Positions 33,001 through 36,000 of a stretch of DNA of 64,000 nt are shown here, piece after piece; the first letter of the stretch is position 1, and each line of letters opens with the position of its first letter. Made by a program: the position numbers. This stretch comes from Escherichia coli (GTDB lineage Bacteria > Pseudomonadota > Gammaproteobacteria > Enterobacterales > Enterobacteriaceae): the NCBI RefSeq assembly GCF_003334385.1, contig NZ_QOWN01000007.1; one strand, written 5' to 3'.

Positions 33001-36000
33001 ACAAGCGCGATCCGAACCAGGGTACCTGCACCAACGCCTGCCGCTGGGAGTACAACGTCCAGGAAGGGAAAGAAGATGACGTTGGCAACATCGTACACAA
33101 GTACGAGCCGATTCCGGTGCAAAATGTTGAGCCGACGCTGGGTATCGGCGCGCCAACCGACAAAGTGTTTATGATCGAAGAAGCCCAGCGTCCGGGCGAG
33201 TATATGACCGCGTTTGAAGATGAGCACGGCACTTACATCATGAACTCGAAAGATCTGCGCGCCATCGCCCATGTAGAACGCCTGACCAAAATGGGCGTGC
33301 ATTCGCTGAAAATCGAAGGCCGTACTAAATCTTTCTACTATTGCGCACGCACCGCACAGGTTTACCGTAAAGCTATCGATGACGCCGCTGCGGGCAAACC
33401 GTTCGATACCAGCCTGCTGGAAACTCTGGAAGGTCTGGCGCATCGTGGCTATACCGAAGGTTTCCTGCGTCGTCATACTCACGACGATTATCAGAACTAC
33501 GAATACGGTTATTCAGTTTCTGACCGCCAGCAGTTTGTTGGTGAGTTTACCGGTGAGCGCAAGGGGGACCTCGCGGCGGTAGCGGTGAAAAATAAATTCT
33601 CCGTTGGCGACAGCCTTGAGCTGATGACGCCGCAAGGCAACATTAACTTTACCCTTGAGCACATGGAAAACGCCAAAGGTGAAGCGATGCCGGTCGCACC
33701 AGGCGATGGTTATACTGTGTGGCTCCCGGTCCCGCAGGATCTTGAGCTCAATTACGCTCTGCTGATGCGTAATTTCTCCGGGGAAACCACGCGTAACCCA
33801 CACGGTAAGTGATTAATTTCGATTATTTTTCCCGGATGGAAAATTCTTAGAAACCGATCACATACAGCTGCATTTATTAAGGTTATCATCCGTTTCGCTG
33901 AAAAACATAACCCATAAAATGCTAGCTGTACCAGGAACCACCTCCTTAGCCTGTGTAATCTCCCTTACACGGGCTTATTTTTTATGCATAAGCCCTATCC
34001 CTGGTCACCGTCTTCCATTGACCACATCGATAGAATCTCCCTTCATAGCACGATGCCTTTCACGTAACGGCATCGTGCTCGCACAGGTTCCGGCTAAGCA
34101 CAACCAGAACGCACATATTTGACGCTTACCAAAAAATATTCTCACTCTCCACATTTGAATGTCAGACGAGCGACACCATGTAATCCTACACCTTCTGTCT
34201 TCAGCTCAACTATTTGCATTTTTTTGCCCTGAGTAACACAGAAATGGGCTGCATCATTTTTTACTATATTTTCTGCACCAGATATTCTACCCCTGGCTAA
34301 AGAAGCTTCGGCTTCGGTGTAGTATTGGTTATCGAGTTTACGCTGAATATTACTTTTATATGCAAGGCCAAATTTACCGATACTTGTCTCATCATTATGC
34401 ACAGCACAACCAGACATAAGAAAAACACTAATTAATGATATAGCAGCTATTTTATTCACCTCACCTTCCCCCATTAAATACCAACGACACTCTCTAGTGT
34501 TTAAGTATAATAATGGCCGATCATTATAATTGAATAGGATTATAATAAATGTTTTGTACAACATTTCCTACATAAGTAGGAATTACAGACTCAGAGGCCC
34601 TTCCGGGTAACCCTATGGGAGCTTTAATATATTTGGAATAGTATATTGAAGATGCCACTGTTTAGTTGAATATTAGATATTTGCTCTTTTTTCAAATTTA
34701 CCGGTGGCTACCGTTAACATTCACTGCCCCCATTGCAAGCTCCTGGTGGTAACAACTGAATTACCCATGCTTGAACTGACTTTTTATCCTCCGACTTTCA
34801 TCCTGTTCTGACTCCACCTTTTGTTTTCTGCTCTACACTATCTACAGACCAATCATAAAGGCACATACGATCATGGCAGAATTTCCCGCCAGCTTACTGA
34901 TTCTTAATGGCAAAAGTACTGACAATCTACCCTTGCGCGAAGCAATTATGCTGTTGCGTGAGGAAGGAATGACGATCCATGTGCGGGTCACCTGGGAGAA
35001 AGGTGATGCCGCACGATTTGTAGAGGAGGCCCGGAAGTTGGGCGTCGCAACGGTGATTGCTGGAGGTGGCGATGGCACCATTAATGAAGTTTCTACGGCG
35101 TTGATTCAGTGTGAGGGGGATGACATACCCGCGCTGGGAATTTTACCATTAGGAACCGCCAATGATTTTGCCACCAGCGTAGGGATTCCTGAGGCACTGG
35201 ATAAGGCGCTGAAACTGGCAATTGCCGGTGACGCCATTGCGATAGATATGGCGCAGGTCAACAAACAAACCTGTTTTATTAATATGGCGACAGGCGGATT
35301 TGGGACGCGTATTACCACAGAAACGCCGGAAAAATTAAAAGCCGCGCTGGGTAGCGTCTCTTACATCATTCATGGCTTAATGCGTATGGATACTCTGCAA
35401 CCGGACCGTTGTGAAATCCGCGGTGAAAACTTTCACTGGCAAGGTGACGCCCTGGTCATTGGTATTGGTAACGGGCGTCAGGCCGGTGGCGGTCAGCAAT
35501 TGTGTCCGAACGCGTTAATTAACGATGGCTTGCTGCAACTGCGCATTTTTACCGGCGATGAAATACTTCCGGCTCTCGTATCAACCTTAAAATCTGACGA
35601 AGATAACCCGAATATTATCGAAGGCGCTTCGTCGTGGTTTGATATTCAGGCACCACACGACATCACCTTTAATCTTGATGGCGAACCGTTGAGTGGGCAA
35701 AATTTTCATATTGAAATACTTCCGGCAGCGTTGCGTTGCCGTCTGCCACCAGATTGCCCGCTTTTACGTTAAATAAAAGCAAGCGCAGAAGCAGGATTAG
35801 CAGACCGGCATCATCCCTGGGATCTTCTGCGCTCACCCTTTTTTGTTACGCAGCTACGGCTAACGCTGCCAGTAATTCATTCATCGATAAATATCTTGCA
35901 CTCGCCGCATTAAAGCAGGTTTGTTGGGCATCTTCTGATACCACAATGGTGTTTATTCCTGCCGCCTGTGCTGCCTGAAAACCACTCACGCTGTCCTCTA

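What the first reader, a model, noticed from the sequence alone, without database searches (positions are those of the whole stretch)
33984..34141. Only about 160 bp between cyaR and yegR: the cryptic P2-like ogrK-yegZ remnant of K-12 appears to be absent
From memory, K-12 carries a phage-P2-derived ogrK gene and a yegZ pseudogene between cyaR and yegR. Here yegR follows cyaR after about 160 bp with no ORF of that kind, so this strain appears to lack that prophage scar.
Basis: partly seen in the sequence, partly recalled or inferred. Interest (0 to 1): 0.3.

Follow-up and report, generated by a model that had tools for sequence, protein, structure and literature searches.

The report
Unoccupied phage P2 attachment site at cyaR
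This strain lacks the small phage-P2 leftover that K-12 carries after the cyaR gene because its P2 integration site is simply unoccupied, which is the ordinary condition in about three quarters of E. coli genomes.

Summary
cyaR ends at 33983 and the yegR stop codon is at 34142, leaving 158 bp. K-12 MG1655 has 788 bp there, and the difference is its annotated 629-bp cryptic prophage PR-X (ogrK plus the yegZ fragment of gene D). No Ogr, gpD, Int, Cox or C homologue exists anywhere in the window.

The last 27 nt of cyaR (33957..33983, terminator loop, descending stem and T-run) are identical to the annotated attP core of phage P2. The interval is therefore an unoccupied P2 attB, a site described in the P2 literature. 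Among 5,426 complete E. coli genomes, about 76% have this uninterrupted short form. 358 (6.6%) have the K-12 remnant, and 805 (14.8%) have a P2-type integrase abutting the core.

One addition: the "empty" flank is not entirely free of phage-like sequence. Positions 34001..34031 resemble P2's Int-binding P arm (z about 11 against shuffles), and a cryptic Escherichia lineage keeps a longer version. The 808-bp AT-rich yegR segment that starts at the core edge is missing from a divergent strain and replaced by toxin-antitoxin genes in Kluyvera. This points to an older scar, but I found no evidence that yegR is phage cargo.

Verdict: ordinary and already known, low interest.

The parts
32451..33812 (+). 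trhP (yegQ), left-hand conserved neighbour
   Evidence: 453-aa ORF. Annotated yegQ/trhP under the match in RefSeq genomes.
33895..33983 (+). cyaR small RNA gene (Rfam match 33895..33980; end at 33983 by transfer of the K-12 annotation)
   Evidence: RF00112, 100.7 bits, gathering score 47, full model 1-85. 90-nt run identical to K-12 from the cyaR start to 33984.
33948..33983 (+). cyaR intrinsic terminator: stem-loop 33948..33975 followed by a T-run
   Evidence: The only terminator-like site found in 33700..34900, with 11 pairs and tail TATTTTTTAT.
33957..33983 (.). P2 attB core, AATCTCCCTTACACGGGCTTATTTTTT, single copy
   Evidence: 27/27 identical (28/28 with the next base) to the annotated attP of P2, NC_001895 24356..24382. 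It is the only core-like sequence in the window at up to 7 substitutions. Genomes with an insert split exactly at query positions 258 and 284, which are window 33957 and 33983.
33984..34141 (.). cyaR-yegR spacer of 158 bp, the reported interval. It corresponds to the right-hand bacterial flank of K-12's remnant.
   Evidence: Colinear with K-12 L001 4832..4989 at about 94% identity.
34001..34031 (.). Fossil resembling the P2 P-arm Int-binding site (CTGGTCACCGTCTTCCATTGACCACATCGA). One arm-type repeat (TGTGGTCA on the minus strand) is intact and the second is degenerate.
   Evidence: Local alignment score 38 against the P2 arm, with shuffles at mean 13.8-14.9 and maximum 25-27. It aligns to the annotated P-arm Int site, L002 2563..2590. 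blastn of PR-X against the window gives E = 0.009. A longer version, including the IHF region, is present in Escherichia sp. MOD1-EC7003. The arm consensus tgTGGaCa is taken from PMC3448106.
34034..34043 (.). Exact repeat of the first 10 nt of the core (AATCTCCCTT). Possibly a decayed displaced core; weak evidence.
   Evidence: 6 of 2000 shuffles reach the score. The repeat is not exact in K-12, RIVM_C036204 or Escherichia sp..
34047..34079 (.). Perfect 11-bp inverted repeat with an 11-nt loop and no T-run on either strand. It sits 3' of yegR, in the position of P2's ogr terminator.
   Evidence: Read from the sequence. Predicted folding energy -20.9 (plus strand) and -23.5 kcal/mol (minus strand).
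34142..34459 (-). yegR, a 105-aa predicted lipoprotein of unknown function (PF27694)
   Evidence: ORF, with a GTG start equivalent to K-12 b2085. Annotated 'protein/lipoprotein YegR' in RefSeq. All homologues carry PF27694.
33984..34791 (.). 808-bp AT-rich segment (arm fossil, hairpin, yegR and its upstream region) that behaves as an indel bounded on the left by the last base of the core
   Evidence: Strain E69 (CP089930.1) matches up to 33983 and resumes at 34792. GC is 33-39% here against about 52% in the flanks. Kluyvera species hold different genes in the same slot.
34873..35772 (+). yegS lipid kinase, right-hand conserved neighbour
   Evidence: 299-aa ORF. Annotated yegS in RefSeq. Also follows cyaR in Kluyvera.

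Best explanation
The interval is the unoccupied chromosomal attachment site (attB) of phage P2 and its close relatives. From memory of the older literature, this is the preferred site of E. coli C, called locI.

The 27-nt core shared by phage and host is the loop, descending stem and T-run of the cyaR terminator. When a P2-like phage integrates, its integrase exchanges strands within this core. cyaR keeps an identical 3' end, and the prophage lies between cyaR and yegR: ogr and D sit next to cyaR, and int sits next to yegR.

K-12 descends from such a lysogen. An illegitimate deletion removed everything from inside gene D to the middle of the right-hand core. That left ogrK, a D fragment (yegZ) and no integrase, so the remnant cannot excise. 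The window's lineage does not carry this remnant. Its site is intact and should be able to receive a P2-like phage.

Shown here: the coordinates, the identity to attP, the absence of prophage genes, the population frequencies and the structure of the K-12 junctions. Inferred: that the site works for integration in this strain, and that the lineage was never occupied rather than cleanly cured.

Beneath this, the host flank carries a short degenerate copy of the phage P arm. This is best read as a relic of a much older integration.
For: - CyaR and its terminator are located by Rfam and the terminator scan.
- Window 33957..33983 is identical to the annotated P2 attP, and the P2 order is int | core | IHF | P arm | ogr | D in the window's orientation.
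- K-12 has cyaR - full core - P arm - ogrK - yegZ - partial core (TACACGGGCTTATTTTTTT) - the same flank as the window.
- The K-12 junction joins gene D to mid-core over a 2-3-nt microhomology.
- No P2 protein homologue is present in the window.
- In split genomes the break is exactly at the core ends. Examples show cox, C and int abutting core plus yegR and ogr and D abutting cyaR plus core (L009).
- Counts in 5,426 genomes: 4,505 contiguous, of which 358 are K-12 type, and 805 with a P2-type int at this attR.
- The literature lists the P2 integration site of E. coli C at MG1655 coordinate 2165238. That matches the cyaR end only after I apply, from memory, the ~2-kb shift between MG1655 sequence versions. 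A 1992 paper's title reports a P2-like remnant in K-12 derivatives.
- The arm fossil is supported.
Against: - Nothing contradicts the main reading.
- Whether this strain's site works in practice is untested.
- 'Never occupied' cannot be told apart from 'occupied and then precisely excised', because Int/Cox excision restores attB exactly.
- The name locI and the content of the 1992 paper rest on my memory plus its title. The paper itself was not available.
- For the older fossil, the homology is short (about 30 nt in E. coli and about 50 nt in the cryptic-clade genome), and its direction of transfer is inferred rather than shown.
Confidence: 0.93

Rival explanations
1. The window's lineage once carried a complete P2-like prophage at cyaR and lost it by normal Int/Cox excision, which restores the empty site exactly. 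On this reading the site is cured rather than never occupied.
For: About 15% of complete E. coli genomes carry an int-bearing P2-like prophage at this very site, so gain and loss must be frequent. Precise excision leaves no trace (established knowledge of tyrosine-recombinase excision).
Against: This cannot be distinguished from 'never occupied' by sequence. It changes nothing about what the interval is today.
Confidence: 0.2
2. The lineage once had the K-12-type PR-X remnant and lost it, either by deletion between the two core copies or by homologous replacement with an empty allele.
For: K-12 retains an 18-19-nt direct repeat of the core on both sides of PR-X. In principle that repeat could mediate a precise deletion.
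Against: The remnant is confined to 358 of 5,426 genomes. All six that were listed are laboratory K-12-type strains or 100%-identical relatives. The window's flank differs from K-12's at about 9 of 158 positions, and the 1,201-bp region is only about 95% identical to K-12-type genomes, so the lineage is not a close relative of K-12. The remnant has no int and only a partial right-hand core.
Confidence: 0.03
3. The P-arm-like stretch in the host flank is not a prophage relic. Instead, an ancestor of P2 picked up host DNA next to cyaR by imprecise excision, and its arm sites evolved from that DNA.
For: The homology is real, and sequence similarity alone does not give a direction of transfer.
Against: The phage copy is the complete, functional and conserved one. 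It is nearly identical in P2 and in the K-12 remnant, and clearly recognisable in a Kluyvera prophage (score 86). It carries both arm-type repeats and the IHF region. The host copy is degenerate: it has a 16-nt deletion in E. coli and its second repeat is lost. It is absent from E69 and from four unoccupied Kluyvera sites that have the same core.
Confidence: 0.1
4. The short interval is an assembly artefact caused by collapse of the duplicated core.
For: None, beyond the general possibility wherever direct repeats exist.
Against: The repeat is only 27 nt. The same structure occurs in thousands of independently finished genomes, one of them 100% identical over 1,201 bp.
Confidence: 0.01

Closest known systems
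Phage P2 attB, the preferred site of E. coli C ('locI' from memory; Barreiro and Haggard-Ljungquist, J Bacteriol 1992, title seen; P2 row of Table 1 in PMC3448106)
   Same: The core is identical to the 27-nt P2 attP core. The position is the 3' end of cyaR, between trhP/yegQ and yegR. It is unoccupied, as described for E. coli C. In other E. coli genomes the same position holds P2-like prophages in the predicted orientation.
   Different: Nothing substantive. The strain is not E. coli C: the window is 100% identical over 1,201 bp to a chicken isolate, ECCNB12-2. Integration was not tested.
K-12 cryptic prophage PR-X (ogrK plus the yegZ pseudogene)
   Same: Same chromosomal site, same left junction (full core at the end of cyaR) and same right-hand flank.
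   Different: The window has none of its 629 bp: no ogrK, no gene D fragment and no second partial core.
Integration of temperate phages and islands into the 3' ends of tRNA, tmRNA and sRNA genes, with the phage supplying an identical 3' end (for example phage 186 in tRNA-Ile and Fels-2 in ssrA, as cited in PMC3448106)
   Same: The core overlaps the terminator of a small RNA gene, and the gene is reconstituted after integration. Successive insertions and decay leave variable DNA just downstream.
   Different: The target is an Hfq-dependent sRNA rather than a tRNA. PMC3448106 describes P2-type integrases as mostly inserting 'between other genes', without naming cyaR.
P2 attP P arm (IHF site plus two arm-type Int repeats, consensus tgTGGaCa)
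   Same: Window 34001..34031 aligns to the annotated P-arm Int site, lies on the same side of the core and keeps one repeat intact.
   Different: It lies 16 nt closer to the core because the IHF region is deleted. The second repeat is degenerate. It is followed by host sequence rather than by ogr. It is unlikely to work as an arm.

Membership tests
Unoccupied phage P2 attB | Core sequence identical to the 27-nt attP core of P2 | tested here: met
   27/27 identical to annotated attP NC_001895 24356..24382.
Unoccupied phage P2 attB | Single core copy with host DNA on both sides and no prophage genes | tested here: met
   One core-like sequence in 64 kb at up to 7 mismatches. No Int, Cox, C, Ogr or gpD homologue (all E >= 0.19).
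Unoccupied phage P2 attB | The same position is occupied in other strains by P2-like prophages flanked by duplicated cores, with int next to one core and ogr/D next to the other | tested here: met
   Breaks fall exactly at the core ends. int, C and cox abut core plus yegR. ogr and D abut cyaR plus core. 805 of 5,426 genomes have this arrangement.
Unoccupied phage P2 attB | Supports Int-mediated integration of P2 | not testable with these tools
   Needs a lysogenisation experiment with junction PCR.
CyaR/RyeE sRNA (Rfam RF00112) | Covariance-model match above the gathering score, with an intact intrinsic terminator | tested here: met
   100.7 bits against a gathering score of 47, full-length model. 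Terminator at 33948..33983.
K-12-type cryptic prophage PR-X | ogrK ORF (72-aa zinc-finger late activator) between cyaR and yegR | tested here: not met
   No tblastn hit better than E = 1.6 anywhere in the window.
K-12-type cryptic prophage PR-X | C-terminal gene D fragment (yegZ) fused to a partial second core | tested here: not met
   tblastn of the yegZ fragment found nothing at E <= 10, and there is a single core copy.
Functional P2 attP-type P arm | Two arm-type direct repeats (tgTGGaCa) plus an IHF site at the phage spacing from the core | tested here: not met
   Only one repeat is intact (TGTGGTCA). The second reads TGGAAGAC. 16 nt of the IHF region are missing relative to P2 and to Escherichia sp. 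MOD1-EC7003. The stretch is homologous but degenerate.
Prophage-borne cargo gene (yegR) | Homologues found inside bona fide phage or prophage genomes | tested here: not met
   The only phage-database hits are host flank included in prophage-derived records. Distant homologues lie in unrelated chromosomal contexts. The phrog_21109 match probably arises the same way, which is an inference.

The most novel reading that the evidence does not exclude
The 'empty' P2 attB of Escherichia may itself be the attL-type scar of a much older P2-like prophage. On this reading the core is followed by a decayed P arm, and the AT-rich 808-bp segment carrying yegR is what remains of that element or of DNA it brought in. 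The slot immediately to the right of the cyaR core would then be a recurrent landing and decay zone across genera: yegR in Escherichia, toxin-antitoxin pairs in Kluyvera, and nothing in strain E69. A further speculation is that the retained arm-type Int site beside the core helps make this the preferred P2 site.
Probability: 0.3. Interest if true: 0.35.

Novelty: already known. Interest (0 to 1): 0.12.

Why it matters
It matters little beyond correct annotation. It shows that K-12, not this strain, is the exception at the cyaR-yegR junction. It also marks the site as an intact landing pad for P2-like phages, which is useful when predicting lysogenisation, when typing strains by the occupancy of this site, or when choosing a neutral integration locus. 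The small arm-like fossil and the genus-to-genus turnover of the DNA next to the core are a neat illustration of how phage attachment sites at small-RNA genes accumulate layered scars. They extend a familiar principle rather than change it.

Tried and rejected
- **MAFFT pairwise alignment.** The window/K-12 alignment misplaced the large gap. I replaced it with anchored walking from both flanks.
- **Wrong coordinates.** My first multi-sequence alignment used the wrong strand coordinates for L010. It was redone.
- **yegR as P2 cargo.** tblastn against 50,697 phage records gave only two hits. Both are host DNA inside mislabelled or over-extended records (ON470606.1 and 'Phage TP' AY639599.1). The strong PHROG hit (phrog_21109) most likely comes from the same contamination, which is an inference. 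Distant homologues (47-59% identity) sit near IS elements, mug or a MerR gene, never in a P2-like prophage. The idea is rejected as unsupported, though not excluded.
- **Second partial core at 34034..34043.** It is statistically modest (6 of 2000 shuffles) and not conserved among strains. I kept it only as an unexplained detail.
- **Hairpin 34047..34079 as a classical terminator.** There is no T-run on either strand and the terminator scan did not report it. In Escherichia sp. the arm differences look non-compensatory by eye.
- **The extra ~170 bp in some strains.** It lies next to the yegR stop and is not phage-arm sequence, so it is unrelated to the finding.
- **Literature.** The 1992 att-site paper and the 2009 CyaR paper are not in the library. 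Two searches that included cyaR listed no paper holding both cyaR and a P2 term, and the searches that could have named locI were swamped by unrelated matches or found nothing relevant. The name locI therefore rests on memory.
- **NCBIfam.** It has no model for yegR or for the two K. cryocrescens ORFs. I read those ORFs as HicA/HicB-like by eye only.

Full report
**Observation**

Rfam places CyaR (RF00112) at 33895..33980 on the plus strand, with 100.7 bits against a gathering score of 47. Transferring the K-12 annotation puts the end of the gene at 33983, because the window and K-12 are identical for 90 nt from the start of cyaR. yegR, a 105-aa minus-strand ORF, ends with its stop codon at 34142.

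In K-12 MG1655 the same interval is 788 bp. RefSeq annotates 'cryptic prophage PR-X' there (2167183..2167811, 629 bp), containing ogrK and the yegZ pseudogene. A direct search confirms the absence. tblastn of OgrK, P2 Ogr, the yegZ fragment, gpD, Int, Cox and C against all 64 kb gives nothing better than E = 0.19. blastn of the PR-X interior finds only one 31-nt stretch.

**What the junction is**

The window and K-12 diverge one base after AATCTCCCTTACACGGGCTTATTTTTT (33957..33983). This 27-mer is identical to the annotated attP of phage P2 (NC_001895 24356..24382). It forms the loop, the descending stem and the T-run of the cyaR terminator, which is the only terminator-like site in 33700..34900.

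In the window's orientation, P2 reads int, P' arm, Cox sites, core, IHF site, P arm, ogr terminator, ogr, D. Integration at this core therefore predicts cyaR-core-P arm-ogr-D on the left and int-core-yegR on the right. K-12 shows the left half: a full core, a P arm nearly identical to that of P2, ogrK and the last 72 codons of D. On its right only TACACGGGCTTATTTTTTT of the core survives, joined to gene D across a 2-3-nt microhomology. The K-12 remnant is thus a lysogen that suffered an illegitimate deletion from D into attR. It has no integrase and no complete right core, so it cannot excise. The window has one intact core and nothing else, which makes it an unoccupied attB.

**Population context**

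I queried 5,426 complete E. coli genomes.
- A 1,201-bp query across the site is found in one piece in 4,505 genomes. In the rest it breaks exactly at query positions 258 and 284, which are the two ends of the core.
- A query spanning the K-12 junctions is found whole in 358 genomes. All six that were listed are laboratory K-12-type strains or 100%-identical relatives.
- A query joining a P2-type int to core plus yegR is found whole in 805 genomes. One example has cox, C and int abutting the core, and a prophage-derived GenBank record shows the same arrangement.

So about 76% of genomes have the uninterrupted form seen here, 6.6% have the K-12 remnant and 14.8% carry an int-bearing P2-like prophage. 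The window's state is the ordinary one.

**Literature**

A paper on P2-like integrases lists the integration site of P2 in E. coli C as 'the corresponding site in MG1655', coordinate 2165238 (PMC3448106). After the roughly 2-kb shift between MG1655 sequence versions, which I recall from memory, this falls a few tens of bases from the end of cyaR. The same paper gives the P2 arm-site consensus tgTGGaCa. The title of Barreiro and Haggard-Ljungquist (1992) reports 'detection of a P2-like remnant in E. coli K-12 derivatives'. The paper itself was not available, so the name locI for this site is from memory. In two searches that included cyaR, none of the listed papers held both cyaR and a P2 term. 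The paper above describes P2-type phages as integrating 'between other genes'.

**An older layer**

To the right of the core, window 34001..34031 (CTGGTCACCGTCTTCCATTGACCACATCGA) aligns to the annotated Int-binding P arm of P2. The score is 38, against shuffles with mean 13.8-14.9 and maximum 25-27, or z about 11. The same stretch lies in K-12's right flank, beyond PR-X.

In Escherichia sp. MOD1-EC7003 the flank keeps a longer match of about 50 nt, which includes the IHF region at the phage's spacing (z 12.3). E. coli differs from it by a 16-nt deletion. One arm-type repeat (TGTGGTCA) is intact and the second is degenerate.

Flanks of the same core in strain E69 and in four unoccupied Kluyvera sites score at background, whereas a Kluyvera intermedia prophage arm scores 86. 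The simplest reading is a relic of an ancient P2-like attL. The reverse direction, a phage capturing host DNA, is less likely because the phage copy is the complete and conserved one.

**The slot next to the core**

Strain E69 (CP089930.1) matches the window up to 33983 and resumes at 34792, just upstream of yegS. It therefore lacks the 808 bp that carry the fossil, a hairpin, yegR and its upstream region. Its yegS region is only 87% identical at the DNA level, so the lineage is divergent. The 808-bp segment has 33-39% GC against about 52% around it.

In Kluyvera, trhP-cyaR(core) and yegS are also about 0.8 kb apart, but the filling differs. K. ascorbata has a RelE/ParE-family toxin (above the NCBIfam cut-off) with an antidote-like protein. 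K. cryocrescens has two small ORFs that look HicA/HicB-like by eye only. The DNA immediately to the right of the core thus turns over between lineages.

I tested whether yegR is phage cargo and found no support. The only phage-database hits are host flank inside prophage-derived or mislabelled records. The PHROG match probably has the same origin, which is an inference. The family (PF27694) is nearly confined to Escherichia and Shigella. Distant relatives sit in unrelated contexts.

**Mechanism and confidence**

- Shown: the anatomy, the identity to attP, the absence of prophage genes, the structure of the K-12 junctions and the frequencies.
- Inferred from established knowledge of tyrosine-recombinase integration: that the site can receive a P2-like phage and that cyaR is preserved on integration.
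- Undecidable from sequence: whether this lineage was never lysogenised or was cleanly cured.

I put 0.93 on the unoccupied-attB reading. I put about 0.3 on the wider idea that the whole yegR segment is a leftover of an ancient insertion at this core.

**Verdict**

The finding is correct but ordinary and already known. The arm-like fossil and the variable slot are minor additions. Interest is low.

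Noticed in passing
window 35846..46824: Between yegS and fbaB the window carries D-arabitol and ribitol catabolic genes where K-12 has the gat operon (gatR split by IS3E, then gatD, gatC and onward). The genes are a HAD phosphatase, a DalT-type MFS transporter, a xylulokinase, D-arabinitol 4-dehydrogenase DalD, two regulators, an SDR dehydrogenase, a pentulose kinase and an RbtT-type MFS transporter. From memory, this is the classical rtl/atl-versus-gat alternative described for E. coli C.
   Followed up: partly
window 34142, immediately 3' of the yegR stop; L017 about 690..860; L010: Some E. coli genomes and Escherichia sp. MOD1-EC7003 have about 170 extra bp between the spacer and the yegR stop codon. 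The window and K-12 lack it. One prophage-derived record annotates a 41-aa ORF there.
   Followed up: partly
L006 (CP089930.1, E. coli strain E69): This GTDB species-representative genome labelled E. coli has no yegR. The sequence runs from the P2 core through 7 nt straight into the yegS upstream region, and that yegS region is only 87% identical at the DNA level.
   Followed up: partly
phage records AY639599.1 (L004) and ON470606.1 (L003): 'Phage TP' is a K-12-like chromosomal piece (yegQ annotated as 'putative protease', ogrK and part of yegR). vB_EcoM-720R8 includes about 2.9 kb of host flank (yegR, yegS, gatR). Such records probably explain why yegR matches phrog_21109 so strongly, so that match is not evidence of phage origin.
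   Followed up: yes
L009 (MAG labelled Collinsella sp.) and L007 (MAG labelled Citrobacter sp.): Both contigs carry E. coli-type cyaR or yegR/yegS flanks (96-100% identical) joined to a P2-like prophage end. They look like E. coli contigs mis-binned into other genomes.
   Followed up: no
L011 10316..11022 and L008 2531..3308 (Kluyvera): The slot between the cyaR core and yegS holds a RelE/ParE-family toxin with an antidote protein in K. ascorbata. In K. cryocrescens it holds two small ORFs that look HicA/HicB-like by eye. So different small modules occupy the same place.
   Followed up: partly
window 20087..20235 and 20422..20564 (+); 4225..4263 (-); 54705..54801 (-): Other Rfam matches above the gathering score: two tandem SIB RNAs, a JUMPstart element and a TPP riboswitch.
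   Followed up: no
window 34047..34079: A perfect 11-bp inverted repeat with an 11-nt loop (about -21 to -23.5 kcal/mol) and no T-run lies 3' of yegR, at the position where P2 has its ogr terminator. Its function is unknown.
   Followed up: partly
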